Origin: Escherichia coli
Lineage (GTDB): Bacteria; Pseudomonadota; Gammaproteobacteria; Enterobacterales; Enterobacteriaceae
Length of the DNA: 64,000 bases
Strand: one strand, 5' to 3'
NCBI RefSeq assembly: GCF_011045215.1
Contig: NZ_CP049201.1
Part shown: positions 39,212 through 50,480 of the stretch, one piece after another
Layout of the letters: each line of letters starts with the position of its first letter
How positions within the stretch are numbered: the stretch's first letter is position 1
Notes under the pieces: model-generated
The model's input: only the letters and a program-made list of their open reading frames with translations
What the model was told of the DNA's origin: nothing
Databases searched by the model: none
Program-made: the position numbers and the translations under genes

Positions 39212-41611
39212 ATGCCCTCAGAAGGATTACGTTTCACGCTGTCGGTGGACGGTATCGTGGAGATGGCGACGGCGGTGGTGAGCTTCCGTCTGTACCAGCA
39301 CCACTGCACGCCGTTCATCCTGGATGTGGATATCGCCAGCGGGCTGTCTGACCTGACGGCGGAGGATTTTCTGGAGAAGAGCGCGGTGCTGACGGTCTGG
39401 CAGGGTGATATCCCGCAGCGTTACGTCAGCGGTATCGTGACGGAGGTGCAACTGGGGGAGAACAACGACTGGCAGATGCGTTATTCCCTGAGCATCAGCC
39501 CGCCGCTGTGGCGGGCAGGGTTACGGCAGAACTTCCGTATCTTCCAGCAGCAGGACATCCAGACGATATCAGCACAGCTTCTGAGAGAGAACGGAGTGAC
39601 GGCATGGATGCCGCTGTTTTATGAAGACCATCCGGCGCGGGAGTTCTGTGTGCAGTACGGGGAAAGCGACCTGGCGTTTCTGGCGCGGCTGTGGGCGGAG
39701 GAGGGGATTTTCTTCTTTGAGCGGTTTGCGGCGGACAGTCCGGAGCAGAAGCTGACGCTGTGCGACGATGTGGCGGGGCTGTCACAGGCGGGAGAGCTTC
39801 CGTTTAACCCGGACACATCGGCAGGAGCGGAGACGGAGTGTCTCAGTACGTTCCGTTATGAGGCGCATGTCCGCCCGTCGTCGGTGCAGAGTCAGGATTA
39901 CACGTTTAAGGTGCCGGACTGGCCGGGGATGTATGAGCAGCAGGGTGAGAACCTGAACGGACAGCTGGCGCAGTACGAGATATTTGATTATCCGGGAAGG
40001 TTCAAGGATGAGCAGCACGGCAAGGATTTCACGCTGTACCAGATGGACAGCCTGCGCAGTGATGCGGAAAAGGCCACAGGGCAGAGTAATTCACCGAAGC
40101 TGTGGCCGGGAACGCGGTTTACGCTGACGGGGCATCCGCAGAAGATGCTGAACCGTGAATGGCAGGTGGTACAGAGCATACTGTCAGGAAGCCAGCCGCA
40201 GGCGCTGCACGGCAGCCAGGGGAGGGGAACCACGCTGGGAAATCAGTTAGAGGTGATACCGGCAGACCGGACGTGGCGTCCACGGCTGCAAAGCAAACCG
40301 AAGGTGGACGGGCCGCAGAGTGCCATTGTGACCGGGCCGAAGGGTGAGGAGATATTCTGCGACGAACATGGCCGGGTACGGGTGAAGTTCCACTGGGACC
40401 GTTATCACGGGATGACGGAGGCGAGTTCATGCTGGGTGCGGGTATCGCAGGCGTGGGCGGGGCCGGGGTTCGGTAACCTGGCGATACCGCGGGTGGGCCA
40501 GGAGGTGATTGTTGACTTCCTGAACGGCGACCCGGACCAGCCCATCGTCACGGGACGGACCTACCATGAAGATAACCGCTCCCCGGGCGACCTGCCGGGA
40601 ACGAAGACGCAGATGACGATACGGTCGAAGACCTATAAAGAAAGCGGATTTAACGAGTTGCGGTTTGAAGACGCCACCAGTAATGAGCAGGTGTATATCC
40701 ACGCGCAGAAGAACATGGATACGGAGGTGCTCAACGACCGGACAACGGATGTGAAGCATGACCATACGGAGACCATTGGTAACGACCAGAAGATAACGGT
40801 GGTGAAGGGGCAGACGGTTGAGGTCGGGACCAGAAAAGAAGGAGGCCACGACCAGAGTATCACGGTGGCGAACGACCGGAGCATAACGGTACGTAACGAC
40901 CAGACGCTGAAGGTGACAAATGACCGGACGGTGAGCGTGAGTCACGATGACGGTCTGTACGTCAGAAATGACCGTAGGGTGACGGTGAAAGGGAAGCAGG
41001 AGCATAAGACGACGGGTAACCACATCAGCCTGGTGGAGGGGAAGCACAGCCTGGAGGTGAAGGGGGACCTGGCGGAGAAGGTGAGTGGCGCGCTGGGGAT
41101 AGAAGTGGACGGGGATATCGTGCTGGAGAGCAGCAGCCGGATAAGCCTGAAGGTGGGTGGCTCGTTTATCGTCATTCAGCCGGGCGGAGTGGATATTGCC
41201 GGGCCGAAGATAAACCTGAACGGTGGGGGCAGTGCGGGGACACCGGTGGGGACGATGCAGCCGGCGGTGCTGGAGGCTCCGGAGGATGAGAGCAGTGATG
41301 ATGGCAGTGATGACTCCGGAGAGGATAGTGGCAATCCCGCAGGGAGTGACGGAGGAGGTGATGGCGGTGACGATGAAGATGATCCTGAAAAATATACCCT
41401 CCAGTTCCATTTTACGGACGATGACGGGATACCGTATTCAGAGACGCAGTATATTGCCTTTTTTGAGGATGGCACACAGACGCGTGGTGAAACAGACAGA
41501 GAGGGATATACAGAAATATTTTATACAGATACAGCACAGGAAATTAAAGTCCAATTGTTATTTTCGGATGCTTTTTATATTGAGCCGGAGGGGCATTATG
41601 GCAGGGAATAA
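39212..41611 (+). CDS. vgrG: Type VI secretion spike protein VgrG (799 aa) with an acidic linker and a small C-terminal extension domain
   Basis: Gp27-like N-terminal region, gp5-like OB-fold and beta-helix (WAGPGFGNLAIPRVGQEVIVDFLNGDPDQPIVTGRTYHEDNR; repeated ...NDRT/ITV... units), then an Asp/Glu/Gly/Ser-rich linker and a roughly 70-aa C-terminal domain. Confidence 0.92.
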   Translation: MPSEGLRFTLSVDGIVEMATAVVSFRLYQHHCTPFILDVDIASGLSDLTAEDFLEKSAVLTVWQGDIPQRYVSGIVTEVQLGENNDWQMRYSLSISPPLWRAGLRQNFRIFQQQDIQTISAQLLRENGVTAWMPLFYEDHPAREFCVQYGESDLAFLARLWAEEGIFFFERFAADSPEQKLTLCDDVAGLSQAGELPFNPDTSAGAETECLSTFRYEAHVRPSSVQSQDYTFKVPDWPGMYEQQGENLNGQLAQYEIFDYPGRFKDEQHGKDFTLYQMDSLRSDAEKATGQSNSPKLWPGTRFTLTGHPQKMLNREWQVVQSILSGSQPQALHGSQGRGTTLGNQLEVIPADRTWRPRLQSKPKVDGPQSAIVTGPKGEEIFCDEHGRVRVKFHWDRYHGMTEASSCWVRVSQAWAGPGFGNLAIPRVGQEVIVDFLNGDPDQPIVTGRTYHEDNRSPGDLPGTKTQMTIRSKTYKESGFNELRFEDATSNEQVYIHAQKNMDTEVLNDRTTDVKHDHTETIGNDQKITVVKGQTVEVGTRKEGGHDQSITVANDRSITVRNDQTLKVTNDRTVSVSHDDGLYVRNDRRVTVKGKQEHKTTGNHISLVEGKHSLEVKGDLAEKVSGALGIEVDGDIVLESSSRISLKVGGSFIVIQPGGVDIAGPKINLNGGGSAGTPVGTMQPAVLEAPEDESSDDGSDDSGEDSGNPAGSDGGGDGGDDEDDPEKYTLQFHFTDDDGIPYSETQYIAFFEDGTQTRGETDREGYTEIFYTDTAQEIKVQLLFSDAFYIEPEGHYGRE

Positions 41612-42401
41612 TAATACTAGTGGGACTTCACAACCCGAGTCGCAAGTATGTGTAGTACCGCAAAAAATTACAAATAAATTTAAAATAATGATGAGTAAGG
41701 CTTGTAAAGCACAGAAAATGGTTTTATTGAAAAGAGCAGATGATATTATGTCATGGGAGGGGGAACAACAACGAGATTTTATTAAAGTTTTTGGCCTTAA
41801 AGGCGAGGACATTATAAAAATCAGAAAGGTTGGGGAAGATACTGGGAAACGAATGCAAGCGAGACTATTCATAATGGATGGCATCAGACAAATAATGACG
41901 ATTGCAAATGGTTTGACGATCGAAAGCTATAAAGATTATACGAACTGCAATGAATTTGCTGCTTTTATTAGTCCACATCTTGATCCTCCTTACATTGTAA
42001 ATATCGGAGCGCATTTTGAATACAGACATGGTATAAAACAGTCGGTTACAGGTAGAGACTCTCATGTAAGTACACTTTGCCATGAAATGTCCCATATATT
42101 TTGGTATTGGGGTGACAATCAAAAAGGTGGTATGTGGACTCAGGATTATACGGGTATTAATAAGTTCGCAACAAGTAATAAGGATGAAGTTAGCTATGAG
42201 AAACATGTTTCAGTGGCTAATGATCTGGTTACATTGCGTAAAGATCAGTTATTTGAGAATGCATATAATGTTGAAAGATATTTTTATATAAAATTAAATG
42301 ATGAAGATATTGAAGCTCAAGATGAGAATATGTTAGCAAAAAAAGTAGAGGATAAAATAAAAGAGATAGAAAAATGTTTTGATGAGTTGATGGGGAAATA
42401 A
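41598..42401 (+). CDS. Putative T6SS effector: uncharacterised protein with an HExxH zinc-metallopeptidase-like motif (267 aa)
   Basis: Start ATG lies within the last 14 nt of vgrG (translational coupling); contains CHEMSHIFWYWGDNQKGGMWTQDYTG (HExxH followed by conserved Asp residues); abrupt drop in GC content relative to vgrG; followed by a secreted-protein gene. Confidence 0.6.
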   Translation: MAGNNNTSGTSQPESQVCVVPQKITNKFKIMMSKACKAQKMVLLKRADDIMSWEGEQQRDFIKVFGLKGEDIIKIRKVGEDTGKRMQARLFIMDGIRQIMTIANGLTIESYKDYTNCNEFAAFISPHLDPPYIVNIGAHFEYRHGIKQSVTGRDSHVSTLCHEMSHIFWYWGDNQKGGMWTQDYTGINKFATSNKDEVSYEKHVSVANDLVTLRKDQLFENAYNVERYFYIKLNDEDIEAQDENMLAKKVEDKIKEIEKCFDELMGK

Positions 42402-42402
42402 G

Positions 42403-43242
42403 ATGAAGAGGTTGGCTTTCTATAATCTAAATTATGTTGTACTGATGGTTTTTTTTCTTTGTTTTTTGCCATTATCTATTGCAATTGCAATAGATAATGA
42501 GAATCTTTTTGTAAAAAAATACAGATTCGGTTTTGAACGAAGAAATGACAATGGGAAACCAATTATTTATCTTAGCCATAATTTAGCGCCAGAGGAAAAT
42601 ATAAGTAATGAATTAACAAATGATGTTGTTGTTAAATTGGTGGTTAAGCCACATGCTGAAAATATTTTAGCTACTATAACTTTTTATAACAGTAGTACTA
42701 AATCGTATTTTCTCCCCAGAATATATTATCCAAAGAACTTCCAAAAAGGAAATGGAGATGTATTTGATGCTTTGTGTGATGACGAATTCTTGATTACATC
42801 AGGAAATATTAGCTTAGACTATCTAGGAGGCTTTTGTCCCTTTGAGCTTGATTTGAATTTGAGCCGATGGGTGGAAATTACGGCAGGTAAAAAAATATCT
42901 TTTGATGTAAAATTGAATGATATGCATTCATTTCTCCCCAGTTTAAATAATTATCATATAAAAACATTAAACTACAAACTTGTTAGGAGAAAATGGTTTG
43001 TATTAAAATCAATTAATGAAACATTCCTCTCTATTTTGATGAAAAGATACTCATGTAATGAATATGATTTTAGAGCTATATCATTTAGTGGAGAGGGATG
43101 TGATAATTATGAATTTGATAAAAATACGTTTTTTTTTGTTAATCAAATATTAGATAAAGATGATGAGCAACATTCTGTTCATATTAGGTCTAATGAATTT
43201 TCCATCAATATCGATGGAAGCTTGGTAAAGCAACCTTATTGA
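42403..43242 (+). CDS. Putative cognate immunity protein (279 aa, N-terminal signal peptide or membrane anchor)
   Basis: Begins 1 nt after the effector stop; hydrophobic N-terminus (VVLMVFFLCFLPLSIAIAI) suggests periplasmic localisation; AT-rich like the effector gene. Confidence 0.5.
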   Translation: MKRLAFYNLNYVVLMVFFLCFLPLSIAIAIDNENLFVKKYRFGFERRNDNGKPIIYLSHNLAPEENISNELTNDVVVKLVVKPHAENILATITFYNSSTKSYFLPRIYYPKNFQKGNGDVFDALCDDEFLITSGNISLDYLGGFCPFELDLNLSRWVEITAGKKISFDVKLNDMHSFLPSLNNYHIKTLNYKLVRRKWFVLKSINETFLSILMKRYSCNEYDFRAISFSGEGCDNYEFDKNTFFFVNQILDKDDEQHSVHIRSNEFSINIDGSLVKQPY

Positions 43243-43304
43243 TTAAAATGTATCGCAGGTTTTATTTTCTGTAATGCTGGTGCATGTGCGTAAATATTTC
43301 TTAA

Positions 43305-43730
43305 GAGCCGGAAACACCTCTTCCGCCTTTATCGACGATAAACCTACCGCCAGAACCGGTGATGCCATTGACTGCGGTGGCGTGGTTAAAGGTGGAGGGC
43401 GATGTGGTGCTGGAGAGCAGCAGCCGGATAAGCCTGAAGGTGGGCGGCTCGTTTGTGGTCATCCATTCAGGGGGCGTGGACATCGTCGGGCCGAAAATCA
43501 ATCTCAATAGCGGCGGTAGTCCGGGAACGCCGGTGCCGACGCTGCAACCGGCGGTTCTGAAAGCGCTGGCAGATGATAAAAGTTTAGCGGCTGAGCAAAA
43601 TGATAGTAATGCATCGTCCGATCAGAATGATAACAACGATGAGGGTGAGGAAGCGCCAGAAAAATCGGTGTGTAAGGAGTGCCTGAAAAGGGCGCAAGAA
43701 GCCGCCGCCGTTTTTGCGCCTCGTGGATAA
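43305..43730 (+). pseudogene. PAAR-vgrG deletion-fusion remnant (3' end of a PAAR gene joined to the 3' end of a second vgrG)
   Basis: 43309..43392 closely matches the PAAR 3' end at 39092..39175 (...FIDDKPTARTGDAIDCGGVV...); from about 43393 the sequence matches vgrG at about 41110..41245 (VLESSSRISLKVGGSF.V.....GGVDI.GPKINLN.GG) and then continues into a different C-terminal tail. Confidence 0.8.
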
Positions 43731-43736
43731 GGGAGA

Positions 43737-44506
43737 ATGACAATGATAACAGTATCGCCACACGCTACCGATCAAGACAAATATATTATCTGGCTGAAGC
43801 AAGCTGAATCATTCTGTTCTGCCGCTGGTTTGGATTACATAGATGTGCTTGTTGACCAGGCTGGAACCGACCAACCTTTGCAAAATGATATGCTTCATCT
43901 GTCGCCAGCCATTCACTGGTATGCCCTGTTTGAAGGAACGCCTGAAGCTGAGACGATGGAGTATTCCCCTGTAGTGTTACGCCTGTACTTTGCGCTCAGT
44001 AGCCATCGCAAATTTCTGGCACAACTGATGGCGTCATTTGCTGATACGCCGCGTCTTACTTTGTTGATATCCCCTCTTACATTCGACCTGCTGGGCGGCA
44101 TCTTCAGGTATTGTCACAGGTTCAGTGGGAAGAACAGACCGGATTGCTGCGTTACTATGATAATCGGGTGTTCCCTTTACTGTTCACACATGTTTTGACT
44201 AACGAGCAGCAGGCGACATTTACTGATATTGCGTTGTTCTGGAGCTGGTTAGACCGTGATGGTGAGATTAACTGGAAATCAGGAAGTTTTTCACCAGAAC
44301 GCAGGCTTACTGACAACCCGGAGATGAATCGGGTGGATGATGTACAGGTGGGATTGATGGGCTGTATCTGCGACGCTGAAGTCCTGATGAAGGAGAAAGC
44401 AGTCAGTGAACTCAGTCAGGAAAGCTATTTTGCCCACTGTCTTGATATTGCTTTCAGGGCCAATGACGCGAAATATTTCGGAGCTTTGCGGGACTTCGAA
44501 GGATAA
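43737..44506 (+). pseudogene. T6SS adaptor/chaperone-like gene (DUF4123-type, Tap/Tec family), split across two overlapping reading frames
   Basis: Two overlapping ORFs (43737..44198 and 44111..44506) together span about 256 codons, in the adaptor position between a vgrG 3' end and a DUF2235 effector gene; family assignment is by position and recalled sequence character. Confidence 0.5.
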
Positions 44507-44819
44507 TATTGTGGTGATGTACGGGGAGATTTATCTGTTTAAAAGTCCGTAGCTGTTAATATCAAGAGATAATCGTGAAATAAACGGAAAATCAAGCTCG
44601 ACATGTAATGGTAGTATCCATCATGTTGCATTTGTGTTCGATCGTAATGTCAGTTCACTTGGCTGCAATATATTTTGCGTAATATCATCAATGCTCTGTC
44701 GATATTCCAATGTGTGACAATCGAAAGATATGCATTTTATTTGCTTCTATGTCAAAACTTTATTGTCGTAGAAACAATACCCATCAATTAAAATCTCTCA
44801 AAGTAAAAGAACCAGCAAC

Positions 44820-45362
44820 ATGTCCAGCAAAATAAGAAATGGAATGAATATAACAAAAGTAGTTAAAGGCTGTCTGGTATTAATTTTGATGGTGATTTCT
44901 GGTTGCTCAGCAGATAATTACGACGATTATACTGCAGGTGATCTCCGGGCAATAAATCATATTAAAGGTATCAGTATTAATTGGTTCACCGTAAATGGTT
45001 ATCGGGTCCATGGTTTGGGCGGTGGATATTGCTGCATAATGTTACCAAAGAAGTGGCATTCTGGATTAAAAGCCCGGATCGAGTGGGAAGTAGACCCGAC
45101 CCCCCTTGAACCTATTGCAATGAAAAAAGAAGGTTTTGGCTATGAAGAAGATGCTTATGCTAAACATGCTGCAAATTATCAAAAATATAAAGTAATTGTT
45201 GACATCCCGGAATACGGCGCTGAACGTTGTGGCCTGACCGTTCATTTTCTGCCGTGTAATCAGATTAAAGTGACAACCGTCTGCGAGGGCTATGGCACAC
45301 CGAATTATCCTATCAAAGAACCCCGCGAGATGAAGGAACCTGCAACATGTCCAGCAAAATAA
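44820..45362 (+). CDS. Lipoprotein (180 aa), candidate Tle1-associated immunity or accessory protein (DUF3304-like)
   Basis: Signal peptide with lipobox (LILMVISGCSADN); directly upstream of and overlapping the Tle1-like gene. Confidence 0.55.
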   Translation: MSSKIRNGMNITKVVKGCLVLILMVISGCSADNYDDYTAGDLRAINHIKGISINWFTVNGYRVHGLGGGYCCIMLPKKWHSGLKARIEWEVDPTPLEPIAMKKEGFGYEEDAYAKHAANYQKYKVIVDIPEYGAERCGLTVHFLPCNQIKVTTVCEGYGTPNYPIKEPREMKEPATCPAK

Positions 45363-47440
45363 GTGGTCTGGCTTTTCCGTGTTATGCCCCCCCGGTGTTC
45401 CCTGAAGATGGGCGATTAATATTATCTGAAGCGCAGGTAAACGCGAACTACCTAAAACAAATCAATAAAACAGAAGAGCACAAAACCAACTGTAGTAAAC
45501 AGGCTGGATTTAGAATTGGCTTTACGTGTAATCAAAGTATGCATATTAGTCTGTTTTTTGATGGTACAAATAATAATGAATATAATGACACTCCTGGACA
45601 CCCAACCAATATTGCCAAACTGTTTCATACGACCTATCAGAACGCAGAAGAACAGGGATATTTTAACTACTATATACCGGGTGTAGGCACACCATTTCCC
45701 AAGATAGGTGAAATGGATTACAGCAACAGCGGGCTGGAGTTCGCTACTGGTGGTGAAGATCGAATTAATTGGGCATTATTACGCCTCGTGGATGCCCTGA
45801 GCTATTCCATTGACCCTTCCCATAAGCGACTGGATGATAATGTGGCAAAAGAGCACATTCCTCTTATGCGCGCTCCCTGGCCTATGACTGGTGAAGTGAA
45901 TCGTCGCAATGTGATTAACCCCTACCTGGAAAAATTACAGGGACTGTTAGAGCAAGCCAGTCCGCGCCTGCTAAACGTAAAGCTGTTTATCTACGGATTT
46001 TCCCGTGGCGCAGCGGAAGCACGAACTTTTGTTAACTGGTTGACTCAGTTAGCTTGCCCGCAGGAGCAACAGGTGATGCTGGCCGGGTTAGCTGTCAGTA
46101 TTGAGTTTTTGGGGCTGCTGGATACCGTAGCTTCTGTGGGGGCGGCGCATGTTTTACCGGGCGCTGCCGGTCATATGGGATGGGCCGATAGTACTCAGCA
46201 ACTCCCTGATGAGAGGCAGTTTCCCGGCCTGATTAAATGCTGCCGCCACTTCGTTGCCGCGCATGAGCAGCGGCTGTGCTTTCCGCTGGATTCAATCCGT
46301 CGTCCAGACGGAAATTATCCTTTAAATGCAGAGGAAATTATCTATCCGGGGATGCACTCTGATGTCGGTGGTGGCTATCCCGTTCGCGATCAGGGGAAGT
46401 CCTGTGGTGACTCAGGCGAAATTCTTTCTCAGATAGCACTGCATGATATGTATCTTGCTGCATTTGATTCAGGAGCACCACTTGCTGTTTATTCTAAATT
46501 TGTTACTCCATTAATAAAAGGTGTGTCGCCTCTGCGAATTATGAGTCCTTCTAGCGTAAAGGAATTTACGATTGCTAATTCATTAACAAAACGCTTCAAC
46601 ATCTGGCGACAAACGCTGCTGAACACCACCTTGCAGGGTACAGAAGAAATGATTGATACGAGGGAAGGTTATCACTCCTATCAACTTGCCCAGGTTCTTG
46701 AAAGCGCAATTAGCGATCAGATCGGCTGGATCACCGCCTGGCGTATCGGTCGCTATGCGAATAACAGCCTTCTTGTGCAACCTTTTTATATTAAGGCGCC
46801 ACAGCTGGATAAAGATGGACTTGATAAAGAGGCTAAAGCGCGTAAAGAACAAATGGAAAATATTGAAAAAGAGCGGGCGAACAAGCAGAAAGGGAATGGC
46901 ACACTTGATGAAAGTAATCAGGGCATTCCTATCCTTGACCCAACCAATGCTCAGTATCAGTTGCGAGAGGCAGCCCGAGAATTTCAGAGCGATTATAAAG
47001 GATGGACGCGCGATATTAACGGCAGCGTCATGGAGAAAGCCATTCAGATTCTTGTGGATGTCATTCCTAAATATCCGGTGTATCTGATTAATGGCGATGA
47101 TGAAGCAAAAGAATATCAGCAAATTAAGGCTATGGGAGACGGACTCTATCCACAATTTTTTATTGATTCACTGGGAACGGGAACGCGTACTCAGCCATGC
47201 GCTGAATTACTGGCCCTCTATGATGACCAGGTTCACGACTCCCGCGCCTGGTTTATGCAAAGTTCGCTGGGTGGACGTGAACCCTGGGGCGGTTATTTTC
47301 GCTACCGCATGATTTACTTCGGTGATGAGGCTAATAAAGAGCTGAAGCTAATCTCTGCAGATGGCAAAGTTGTTGGCGATCAGCCCACATCCAACCGGGT
47401 CATTTATTGGATGGAATCGAAAACGGTGAGCCGAGGTTAA
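45347..47440 (+). CDS. Tle1-family T6SS phospholipase effector (DUF2235 alpha/beta-hydrolase, 697 aa)
   Basis: DUF2235 hallmark ISLFFDGTNNNEYND...; nucleophile elbow GxSxG (IYGFSRGAAEAR); vgrG-adaptor-effector gene order. Confidence 0.75.
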   Translation: MSSKISGLAFPCYAPPVFPEDGRLILSEAQVNANYLKQINKTEEHKTNCSKQAGFRIGFTCNQSMHISLFFDGTNNNEYNDTPGHPTNIAKLFHTTYQNAEEQGYFNYYIPGVGTPFPKIGEMDYSNSGLEFATGGEDRINWALLRLVDALSYSIDPSHKRLDDNVAKEHIPLMRAPWPMTGEVNRRNVINPYLEKLQGLLEQASPRLLNVKLFIYGFSRGAAEARTFVNWLTQLACPQEQQVMLAGLAVSIEFLGLLDTVASVGAAHVLPGAAGHMGWADSTQQLPDERQFPGLIKCCRHFVAAHEQRLCFPLDSIRRPDGNYPLNAEEIIYPGMHSDVGGGYPVRDQGKSCGDSGEILSQIALHDMYLAAFDSGAPLAVYSKFVTPLIKGVSPLRIMSPSSVKEFTIANSLTKRFNIWRQTLLNTTLQGTEEMIDTREGYHSYQLAQVLESAISDQIGWITAWRIGRYANNSLLVQPFYIKAPQLDKDGLDKEAKARKEQMENIEKERANKQKGNGTLDESNQGIPILDPTNAQYQLREAAREFQSDYKGWTRDINGSVMEKAIQILVDVIPKYPVYLINGDDEAKEYQQIKAMGDGLYPQFFIDSLGTGTRTQPCAELLALYDDQVHDSRAWFMQSSLGGREPWGGYFRYRMIYFGDEANKELKLISADGKVVGDQPTSNRVIYWMESKTVSRG

Positions 47441-47697: not shown

Positions 47698-50480
<2,783 letters not shown>

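What the first reader, a model, noticed from the sequence alone, without database searches (positions are those of the whole stretch)
44815..45363. Identical 22-bp direct repeats frame the lipoprotein gene; the Tle1-like gene reuses the same MSSKI start
GCAACATGTCCAGCAAAATAAG occurs at 44815..44836 and at 45342..45363, 527 bp apart. The first copy contains the lipoprotein start codon. The second contains both the lipoprotein stop (overlapping frame) and the Tle1-like start, so both proteins begin MSSKI. This is what unequal crossing-over or cassette duplication of lipoprotein genes upstream of a DUF2235 effector would leave, and it raises the question whether the annotated Tle1 N-terminus is native or acquired from a lipoprotein gene start.
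Basis: seen in the sequence. Interest (0 to 1): 0.45.

Follow-up and report, generated by a model that had tools for sequence, protein, structure and literature searches.

The report
Immunity-gene tail repeat carrying toxin start
The two identical 22-bp repeats are the tail of a type VI secretion immunity gene, which contains the ribosome-binding site and start codon of the next gene; copying and losing this immunity gene through the repeat is ordinary tandem-gene evolution, seen here as 0 to 3 copies among E. coli strains.

Summary
GCAACATGTCCAGCAAAATAAG occurs exactly twice in the window (44815 and 45342), with none expected by chance.

The repeat is the last seven codons plus stop of a Tli1a-family (DUF3304) lipoprotein immunity gene. 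The start codon and first five codons of the next gene, the phospholipase toxin tle1, lie inside it in another frame.

Copy 2 is the real tli-to-tle1 junction. Copy 1 sits in a 12-codon relic of a lost upstream tli copy (KVKEPATCPAK*) and now heads the surviving tli gene.

Related E. coli genomes carry 0, 1, 2 or 3 tli cassettes, always bounded by this motif. One strain, 99.7% identical in both flanks, lacks exactly the 527 bp between the repeats. Another carries a chimeric cassette.

In 74 loci from other genera the tle1 ATG almost always lies 1-13 nt before the tli stop. Internal tli genes there reuse the tle1 start, echoing 10 to about 290 nt of the tle1 5' end.

This is a new example of a known process, of modest interest.

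The parts
43737..44506 (+). tla1 (DUF4123 adaptor/chaperone of Tle1), disrupted by a 1-nt frameshift near 44092
   Evidence: Both ORF halves (43737-44198 and 44111-44506) hit NCBIfam NF053803 Tla1, at profile positions 1-110 and 109-232. The window lacks one G of a GGGG run that is intact in L001.
44507..44799 (+). AT-rich spacer U between tla1 and the tli array
   Evidence: Homologous in all E. coli arrays: 99.7% identical to L001 and about 77% to the U' lineage (L002/L003/L008). The promoter-like hits here are no more frequent than in shuffled sequence.
44800..44835 (+). Relic of the 3' end of a lost upstream tli cassette (reads KVKEPATCPAK*)
   Evidence: The sequence reads this way directly, compared with the true tli tail EMKEPATCPAK*. 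Similarity decays upstream of the 22-mer. A more diverged version of the relic (KVKEPAICPSK*, start MPVEI) sits in the U' lineage. No such relic is found at the array head in most other genera.
44815..44836 (+). Junction module, copy 1: holds the ATG (44820) that opens the tli ORF
   Evidence: Exact repeat. The Shine-Dalgarno context is degraded here (AAAAGA, -0.9 kcal/mol).
44820..45362 (+). tli: Tli1a-family DUF3304 lipoprotein immunity gene, cassette type C. Alternative start Met9 at 44844. Lipobox VISG-C, with Cys29 at 44904-44906
   Evidence: NCBIfam NF053804 Tli1a_fam scores 199 bits against a cut-off of 110. Pfam DUF3304, E = 2e-24. The signal peptide and lipobox are read from the translation. 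No SignalP was run.
45188..45362 (+). Conserved 3' block of the cassette, the homology used for unequal crossing-over between paralogues
   Evidence: The last 175 nt are 87-100% identical between cassette types, while the 5' two-thirds are 53-56% identical between types B and C. The L002 cassette is B at its 5' end and C at its 3' end.
45332..45337 (+). Shine-Dalgarno sequence of tle1 (GAAGGA), encoded by the Met-Lys-Glu codons of tli
   Evidence: Anti-SD duplex energy is -5.7 kcal/mol, about the best 10% of ATGs in the window. The GGAG/GGAA core is kept at nucleotide level across 47 junctions even where the amino acid changes.
45342..45363 (+). Junction module, copy 2: last codons and stop of tli (…PATCPAK*) overlapping the tle1 ATG (45347) and its codons 1-5
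   Evidence: The same motif sits at every tli-tli and tli-tle1 boundary in E. coli arrays.
45347..47440 (+). tle1: T6SS phospholipase effector (DUF2235), 697 aa, intact here. GFSRG motif at residues 217-221
   Evidence: Pfam PF09994 and PF22137. E = 2e-117 to the P. aeruginosa Tle1 structure 4O5P over residues 11-677. The motif is invariant in alignment A2.
45387..45393 (+). C7 homopolymer in tle1 codons 14-16 (Ala-Pro-Pro), whose length decides whether the ORF from the ATG stays open
   Evidence: C7 in 8 of 11 E. coli loci. C6 in L001, L004 and L006, where the ORF stops after 23 aa.

Best explanation
The 22-bp repeat is the tail of a Tli1a-family (DUF3304) immunity gene. That tail is dual-coding. 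In one frame it encodes the conserved Tli C-terminus (…M-K-E-P-A-T-C-P-A-K-stop). In another frame it supplies the Shine-Dalgarno sequence (aaGGAa), the ATG (inside aCA TGT CCn, the Thr-Cys-Pro codons) and the first five codons of whatever gene follows.

Copy 2 (45342) is the genuine tli-to-tle1 junction. Copy 1 (44815) is what remains of an upstream tli cassette that was lost. Only about 12 codons of its tail survive, and the surviving tli gene is read from the tle1-type ATG inside that relic. This is why both proteins begin MSSKI.

The array grows by tandem duplication of a unit spanning the junction. It shrinks by recombination between the conserved cassette 3' blocks (about 60-175 bp) or between the short junction copies themselves (22-31 bp). 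The result is 0-3 cassettes in E. coli strains.

Shown here: the repeat; the copy-number series; the exact deletion product; a chimeric cassette; the family-wide start/stop overlap; and the echo of the tle1 5' end at internal tli starts.

Inferred, not shown: the recombination pathway; which ATG is used for tli in this window; translational coupling of the toxin to the immunity gene; and whether the different cassettes neutralise different Tle1 alleles.
For: The repeat is exact and unique in the window.

Family assignments: Tli1a_fam at 199 bits against a cut-off of 110, and the Tla1 halves; DUF3304 and both Tle1 domains; Tle1 to PDB 4O5P at E = 2e-117.

E. coli copy number. 69 of 5,426 genomes carry the locus. 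68 carry 1-3 cassette 3' ends, median 3, 180 in all.

Architectures U-J-tle1, U-J|C|J, U-J|B'|J, U-J|B|J|C|J, A|J|B|J|C|J, A|J|B/C|J and U-J|B|J|B''|J|B'''|J all break at the motif.

L001 is 99.7% identical to the window on both sides and lacks exactly one repeat unit. It has the upstream flank, one 22-mer, then the tle1 body.

The L002 cassette is 100% type B in its 5' part. In its 3' part it is 98% type C and 91% type B.

The Tle1 N-terminus is conserved to Pseudomonas. The Tli C-terminus …KEPAxCPxK* is conserved family-wide, and many paralogues have Tle1-like N-terminal extensions.

Across the other genera, 52 of 55 tli-tle1 junctions place the tle1 ATG 1, 7, 10 or 13 nt before the tli stop. 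51 of 62 internal junctions keep a start codon at the echoed position, and 33 of these are in frame with the next tli. Echo lengths range from 10 to about 290 nt.

The SD core is kept at nucleotide level while the amino acid varies: AAG, CCG, GAG or CAG precedes GAG/GAA.

Precedent for the mechanism: T7SS esaG and tipC immunity strings recombine through conserved blocks (PMC9484751). Tandem tli genes next to tle1 are described in P. aeruginosa and EAEC (PMC13133936).
Against: The direction of the L001/window difference (deletion versus cassette insertion) is inferred, not observed. The inference rests on the expectation that an active toxin needs its immunity gene.

The start codon used by tli in this window is unknown. 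Neither candidate ATG has a good SD: -0.9 kcal/mol at 44820 and -1.5 at 44844.

Between the two E. coli spacer lineages the relic junction is no better conserved (17 of 22) than the surrounding spacer (about 77%). The exact identity of the two copies in this window therefore reflects recent recombination or gene conversion rather than long-term selection. The history of that event cannot be reconstructed from 11 loci.

18 of 51 internal junctions in other genera have the echoed ATG out of frame with the next tli. Use of that ATG by tli is therefore common but not universal.
Confidence: 0.85

Rival explanations
1. The Tle1 N-terminus (MSSKI) was captured from a lipoprotein gene start, so the annotated Tle1 start is not native.
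For: Both ORFs share the same 17 nt from the ATG onwards.
Against: Tle1 homologues from E. coli to Pseudomonas (46% identity) start MS-x-E/K-I/M/V and then run into the conserved APPxFP motif. The first tli of arrays in other genera has ordinary, unrelated lipoprotein starts such as MKKIAVSC… and MRKWMLF…. Internal tli genes carry longer stretches of Tle1-specific sequence, up to about 290 nt.
Confidence: 0.03
2. The two copies are identical only because both are under the same selection as translation-initiation signals. They are parallel conservation, not a duplication footprint, and play no part in recombination.
For: The tail does encode an SD and an ATG kept at nucleotide level across genera. 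The region is unstructured, like a good initiation site.
Against: Copy 1 has lost the SD (AAAAGA, -0.9 kcal/mol) yet keeps 22 of 22 identity, including the tli-frame stop codon, which has no role there. The equivalent relic in the U' lineage differs at 5 of 22 positions and still heads an ORF. L001 is the exact product of recombination between the two copies.
Confidence: 0.07
3. The motif is a site for a dedicated (site-specific, integron-like) recombinase that inserts and excises immunity cassettes.
For: Cassettes have sharp, motif-bounded ends, and arrays differ by whole cassettes.
Against: No integrase or recombinase gene is annotated within the stretches fetched around the E. coli loci; only IS remnants lie downstream. 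In other genera the duplicated unit ends at very different points inside tle1, 10 to about 290 nt, as expected from random duplication breakpoints rather than a fixed site. The L002 crossover lies inside the conserved coding block, not at the motif. The motif is simply the conserved end of the coding sequence.
Confidence: 0.03
4. It is a chance repeat or an assembly artefact.
For: None found.
Against: Zero matches in 100 shuffles. The same arrangement occurs in independent complete genomes.
Confidence: 0.01

Closest known systems
vgrG-tla1-tli1b-tli1a-tle1 locus of Pseudomonas aeruginosa PAO1 (PA3294-PA3290) and the EAEC tle1 locus (PMC13133936)
   Same: Same gene order and the same families: VgrG, the DUF4123 adaptor Tla1, one or more DUF3304 outer-membrane lipoprotein immunity genes upstream of the DUF2235 phospholipase Tle1. 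Extra tli copies are often defective.
   Different: That paper does not describe the start/stop overlap module, the reuse of the tle1 start by tli paralogues, or strain-to-strain copy-number change. In this window tla1 is frameshifted and only one tli cassette remains, preceded by a 12-codon relic.
Tandem T7SS immunity paralogues esaG (Staphylococcus aureus) and tipC (Streptococcus), which evolve by homologous recombination through conserved sequence blocks (Garrett et al. 2022, PMC9484751)
   Same: Strings of non-identical immunity genes next to a polymorphic toxin. Conserved blocks inside otherwise divergent paralogues. Gene loss, gain and chimeras through recombination between the blocks (compared).
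   Different: Different secretion system, protein family and phylum. Here the main conserved block is the 3' third of the gene, and it ends in a dual-coding tail that carries the next gene's ribosome-binding site and start codon. Each copy therefore exports the toxin's start to its downstream neighbour.
T6SS orphan immunity arrays, for example the Vibrio cholerae auxiliary clusters (PMC5361080) and Ralstonia aux clusters with DUF3304 genes (PMC11481896)
   Same: Arrays of immunity genes beside an effector that differ between strains.
   Different: The V. cholerae paper's title and abstract attribute those arrays to sequential displacement of effector-immunity modules. Here the arrays are paralogues of one family, expanded and contracted in place.

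Membership tests
Tli1a-family (DUF3304) Tle1 immunity lipoprotein | Sequence match to the curated family model above its cut-off | tested here: met
   NCBIfam NF053804 scores 199.1 bits against a cut-off of 110, covering residues 26-178. Pfam PF11745 DUF3304 scores 86 bits against a cut-off of 22.
Tli1a-family (DUF3304) Tle1 immunity lipoprotein | Lipoprotein signal peptide with a lipobox cysteine, and no Asp at +2 (outer-membrane sorting) | tested here: inconclusive
   Read from the translation: …LILMVISG-C29-S30. No signal-peptide predictor was available, and the true start (Met1 or Met9) is unknown.
Tli1a-family (DUF3304) Tle1 immunity lipoprotein | Encoded next to a tle1 gene | tested here: met
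   It overlaps tle1 by 16 nt. The same adjacency is seen at 57 of 71 tle1 genes in other genera.
Tli1a-family (DUF3304) Tle1 immunity lipoprotein | Binds and neutralises the cognate Tle1 | not testable with these tools
   Needs competition, co-expression or binding assays.
Tle1 (DUF2235) T6SS phospholipase effector | Catalytic and C-terminal Tle1 domains, and homology to a solved Tle1 structure | tested here: met
   PF09994 and PF22137. PDB 4O5P, E = 2e-117, residues 11-677.
Tle1 (DUF2235) T6SS phospholipase effector | GxSxG nucleophile motif | tested here: met
   G217-F-S219-R-G221 is invariant in the 28-sequence alignment A2 and aligns to YGFSRGA of 4O5P.
Tle1 (DUF2235) T6SS phospholipase effector | Genetic linkage to VgrG and a DUF4123 adaptor | tested here: met
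   VgrG at 39212-41611, a VgrG C-terminal fragment at 43359-43730, and tla1 at 43737-44506, which is frameshifted.
Tandem immunity-paralogue arrays evolving by homologous recombination (esaG/tipC type) | Conserved blocks within otherwise divergent tandem paralogues | tested here: met
   3' 175 nt are 87-100% identical; the 5' part is 53-56% identical between types B and C.
Tandem immunity-paralogue arrays evolving by homologous recombination (esaG/tipC type) | Copy-number differences between related strains, with breakpoints in the conserved blocks, and chimeric genes | tested here: met
   0-3 copies. Exact one-unit deletion in L001. B/C chimera in L002.
Tandem immunity-paralogue arrays evolving by homologous recombination (esaG/tipC type) | Recombination observed as a process (rate, recA dependence) | not testable with these tools
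   Needs experiments or population sequencing.
Integron-like or site-specific cassette system | Dedicated recombinase gene and a fixed recombination site | tested here: not met
   No recombinase is annotated within the stretches fetched around the E. coli loci. Duplication end-points vary from 10 to about 290 nt into tle1.

The most novel reading that the evidence does not exclude
The dual-coding Tli tail is a selected, portable module rather than a by-product. It would make toxin translation depend on translation of the immunity gene just upstream, give every immunity paralogue the toxin's own initiation signals so that their outputs are matched, and supply the homology that lets strains rapidly gain, lose and shuffle immunity cassettes against rival Tle1 alleles without any recombinase. 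The C7 tract 40 nt into tle1 would add a reversible toxin on/off switch, which would allow the immunity gene to be lost, as in strain 2018-05-2CC.
Probability: 0.2. Interest if true: 0.5.

Novelty: new member of a known kind. Interest (0 to 1): 0.3.

Why it matters
It explains a recurring annotation puzzle. DUF3304 immunity genes in arrays are annotated with inconsistent starts, and many appear to share their first residues with the toxin.

It also gives a simple rule. The tle1 ribosome-binding site and start codon sit inside the conserved C-terminal codons of tli, so every complete tli copy carries them along.

It shows that in E. coli the number of Tle1 immunity genes changes between close relatives by recombination at defined points, including complete loss. 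That bears on predicting which strains resist which T6SS attackers.

It extends to a T6SS lipase-immunity family the recombination-driven evolution already shown for T7SS immunity strings.

It does not reveal a new kind of system.

Tried and rejected
- **Chance repeat.** Rejected: 0 of 100 shuffles gave a match.
- **RNA hairpin hiding the tle1 start, as a coupling mechanism.** Rejected. Four windows around both copies fold no better than shuffled sequence, with z-scores of +0.4 to +1.6.
- **Promoter or terminator signals around the repeats.** 12 promoter-like sites found against 8.4 ± 3.3 expected, so the scan is not informative.
- **Link between proximal cassette type and Tle1 allele.** None is evident. 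L007 has the same type C cassette as the window, yet its Tle1 differs at 65 residues in patches (83-103, 154-165, 375-414). L010, with a B-type cassette, differs at only 19. Seven full-length alleles are too few to settle this.
- **Relic junction at the head of the first tli as a general feature.** Rejected. It is found in all E. coli loci but not in most other genera.
- **Choosing between Met1 and Met9 as the tli start from Shine-Dalgarno strength.** Both are weak, so this is unresolved.
- **Solved structure for Tli by sequence search.** None found.
- **First Pfam call.** Failed because one coordinate range was in the wrong frame; it was repeated.
Full report
**Observation.** GCAACATGTCCAGCAAAATAAG occurs at 44815-44836 and 45342-45363 on the + strand. 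It occurs nowhere else in the window, even with three mismatches allowed, and none of 100 dinucleotide-preserving shuffles gave a match. The similarity continues 9 nt upstream: 44806-44836 matches 45333-45363 at 29 of 31 positions. A 180-aa ORF runs 44820-45362 and a 697-aa ORF runs 45347-47440. They overlap by 16 nt and both begin MSSKI.

**What the genes are.** The 180-aa protein is a Tli1a-family immunity lipoprotein. It scores 199 bits on NCBIfam NF053804 against a cut-off of 110, and it matches Pfam DUF3304. Its translation shows a lipobox (…VISG-C29).

The 697-aa protein is a Tle1 phospholipase effector. It has both Pfam Tle1 domains and matches the P. aeruginosa Tle1 crystal structure 4O5P at E = 2e-117. 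Its GFSRG motif is invariant in a 28-sequence alignment.

Upstream lie a full VgrG (39212-41611), a VgrG C-terminal fragment (43359-43730) and the DUF4123 adaptor gene tla1 (43737-44506). In this window tla1 is split by a missing G near 44092.

The order vgrG-tla1-tli(n)-tle1 is the one described for P. aeruginosa PA3294-PA3290, where Tli1a is an outer-membrane lipoprotein that binds Tle1. EAEC has a similar locus with a second, defective tli copy (PMC13133936).

**What the repeat is.** Copy 2 is the last seven codons and stop of tli (P-A-T-C-P-A-K-stop). In another frame it holds the ATG and first five codons of tle1. Copy 1 is not preceded by a tli gene. In the tli frame the sequence ending in it reads K-V-K-E-P-A-T-C-P-A-K-stop, compared with E-M-K-E-P-A-T-C-P-A-K-stop for the true gene end. 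Similarity fades further upstream. Copy 1 is therefore a short relic of the 3' end of another tli copy, and the surviving tli ORF opens at the tle1-type ATG inside that relic.

**Evidence from E. coli.** 69 of 5,426 complete E. coli genomes carry this locus. 68 of them have one to three cassette 3' ends, median three, 180 in total.

In eleven loci read in detail, every boundary between tli genes, and between tli and tle1, is the same motif with zero to two changes. The architectures are:
- no cassette (L001);
- one type C cassette (the window, L005, L006);
- one B-type cassette (L004, L010);
- B then C (L007);
- A, B, C (L003, L008);
- A then a B/C chimera (L002);
- three B-type cassettes (L009).

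L001 (strain 2018-05-2CC) is 99.7% identical to the window on both sides and differs by exactly one unit. It has the upstream flank, one 22-mer, then the tle1 body. That is the product expected from recombination between the two repeats in the window.

Cassettes are only 53-56% identical between types B and C in their 5' two-thirds, but 87-100% identical in their last 175 nt. The L002 cassette is 100% type B in its 5' part. In its 3' part it is 98% type C and 91% type B. That is the signature of an unequal crossover inside the conserved block.

**Direction of borrowing.** Tle1 homologues down to 46% identity (Pseudomonas) begin MS-x-E/K-I/M/V and continue into the conserved (W/Y/F)APPxFP motif. 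The Tle1 start is therefore native.

The Tli C-terminus …KEPAxCPxK-stop is likewise conserved throughout the family. Many Tli paralogues carry an N-terminal extension that mimics their local Tle1, followed by an internal Met and a normal lipoprotein signal peptide. Examples are MSSEIGSGSN-MSTVFK… in Kluyvera and MSKMNTKYNVWAPPDF-… in a metagenomic protein.

I fetched 74 loci from other genera using a Tle1 alignment and located tli and tle1 with HMMs built from the homologue sets.
- 57 of 71 tle1 genes have tli directly upstream, and 30 have two to six copies.
- In 52 of 55 junctions the tle1 ATG lies 1, 7, 10 or 13 nt before the tli stop.
- At 51 of 62 internal tli-tli junctions a start codon sits at the equivalent position, and in 33 of those it is in frame with the next tli.
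- The copied piece of the tle1 5' end ranges from about 10 nt to 39 nt (Rahnella), 46 nt (P. helleri), 150 nt (Pseudomonas sp. M47T1, three times), and 287-288 nt (P. laurylsulfativorans, Pantoea sp. Mb-10).

The duplication unit therefore spans the junction and ends at a different place inside tle1 in each lineage. The E. coli case ends 1 nt after the tli stop and is the shortest version.

The first tli of an array in other genera usually has its own unrelated start. The relic at the head of the array is an E. coli-lineage feature.

**Dual coding.** The tle1 start has a real Shine-Dalgarno sequence (GAAGGA, -5.7 kcal/mol, about the best tenth of ATGs in the window). Copy 1 has lost it (AAAAGA, -0.9), and Met9 is also weak (-1.5).

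Across 47 overlapping junctions the codon before Glu-Pro is AAG, CCG, GAG or CAG: four different amino acids, and 40 of 41 codons end in G. Glu is GAG in 34 cases and GAA in 7. The GGAG/GGAA core is therefore maintained at nucleotide level. The conserved Tli tail is at least partly conserved because it is the ribosome-binding site and start of the next gene. The junction is not folded into RNA structure (z-scores +0.4 to +1.6), as expected for an open initiation region.

**How it most likely works.**
- Shown: the tail module, its repetition at every boundary, copy-number change at those boundaries, a chimera, and the family-wide overlap.
- Inferred: arrays expand by tandem duplication across the junction. 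They contract by recombination between cassette 3' blocks or, as between the window's state and L001, between the 22-31-bp junction copies. The upstream position and the overlap make toxin translation follow immunity translation. Divergent cassettes may protect against different Tle1 alleles.

The exact identity of the two copies in this window is recent rather than anciently maintained. The equivalent relic in the other E. coli spacer lineage differs at 5 of 22 positions, about as much as the surrounding spacer.

**Comparison with what is known.** Tandem DUF3304 genes beside tle1 are already described (PMC13133936). Loss, gain and chimeras of tandem immunity paralogues through conserved blocks are established for the T7SS genes esaG and tipC (PMC9484751). 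Strain-variable T6SS immunity arrays are known in Vibrio and Ralstonia. What I did not find described in my literature searches, which were not exhaustive, is the dual-coding tail that exports the toxin's start to each downstream paralogue, and the 0-3 copy series in E. coli. This is a new example of a known process.

**Limits.**
- The direction of the L001/window difference is inferred.
- The tli start used in this window is unknown.
- Whether the C6 alleles of tle1 are real or are homopolymer assembly errors is unknown.
- No simple relation between cassette type and Tle1 allele emerged from seven full-length alleles.

Noticed in passing
window 45387-45393: A C7 run in tle1 codons 14-16 (Ala-Pro-Pro of the conserved APPxFP motif). 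Three of 11 E. coli loci (L001, L004, L006) have C6, which stops the ORF from the native ATG after 23 aa. RefSeq then calls tle1 frameshifted or restarts it at a downstream GTG that has no SD. The one strain without any tli (L001) has the C6 allele. This could be slipped-strand on/off variation or a homopolymer assembly error.
   Followed up: partly
window 43737-44506 (indel near 44092): The adaptor gene tla1 (DUF4123) is split into two overlapping ORFs because one G of a GGGG run is missing relative to L001. This window therefore has an intact toxin and immunity gene but a broken adaptor, unless the missing G is a sequencing error.
   Followed up: partly
window 39212-43730: A full vgrG (39212-41611) is followed by an HExxH protein (within 41223-42401; homologous loci are annotated as M35 metallopeptidase, but Pfam gave no hit here). 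Next comes a 279-aa ORF with no family match (42403-43242), then a VgrG C-terminal fragment (43359-43730) that repeats the end of the full VgrG. It looks as if a vgrG-effector-immunity module was inserted into, or recombined with, an older vgrG upstream of tla1.
   Followed up: no
window 47700-50143: Downstream of tle1 there is an ISAs1-family transposase remnant (annotated as a frameshifted pseudogene in homologous loci). In this window only, there is also an IS21-type pair on the minus strand (istB-like 48342-49124, istA-like 49121-50143).
   Followed up: no
L016 2324-8307; L017 2984-8313; L027 238-5285: In some Pseudomonas and Pantoea loci the tandem unit includes a large truncated piece of tle1 (about 63, 205 or 320 codons), leaving strings of tli plus tle1 N-terminal fragments ahead of the full tle1.
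   Followed up: partly
L019 5962-14046; L037, L042: Some lineages place the tli array downstream of tle1. Enterobacter sp. BIGb0383 (L019) has six tli genes between two tle1 genes, and those junctions do not carry the overlap module.
   Followed up: no
L007, L009, L010 compared with window 45347-47440: E. coli Tle1 alleles are mosaic. Differences cluster in patches (residues 83-103, 154-165, 375-414) that are shared in different combinations between strains, which suggests recombination within tle1 as well.
   Followed up: partly
L005 3658-6794: In strain EC2641 the same tli(C)-tle1 unit has tle1 interrupted by IS903B, and no tla1 or vgrG is annotated upstream. This is another route to toxin inactivation with the immunity gene retained.
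   Followed up: no
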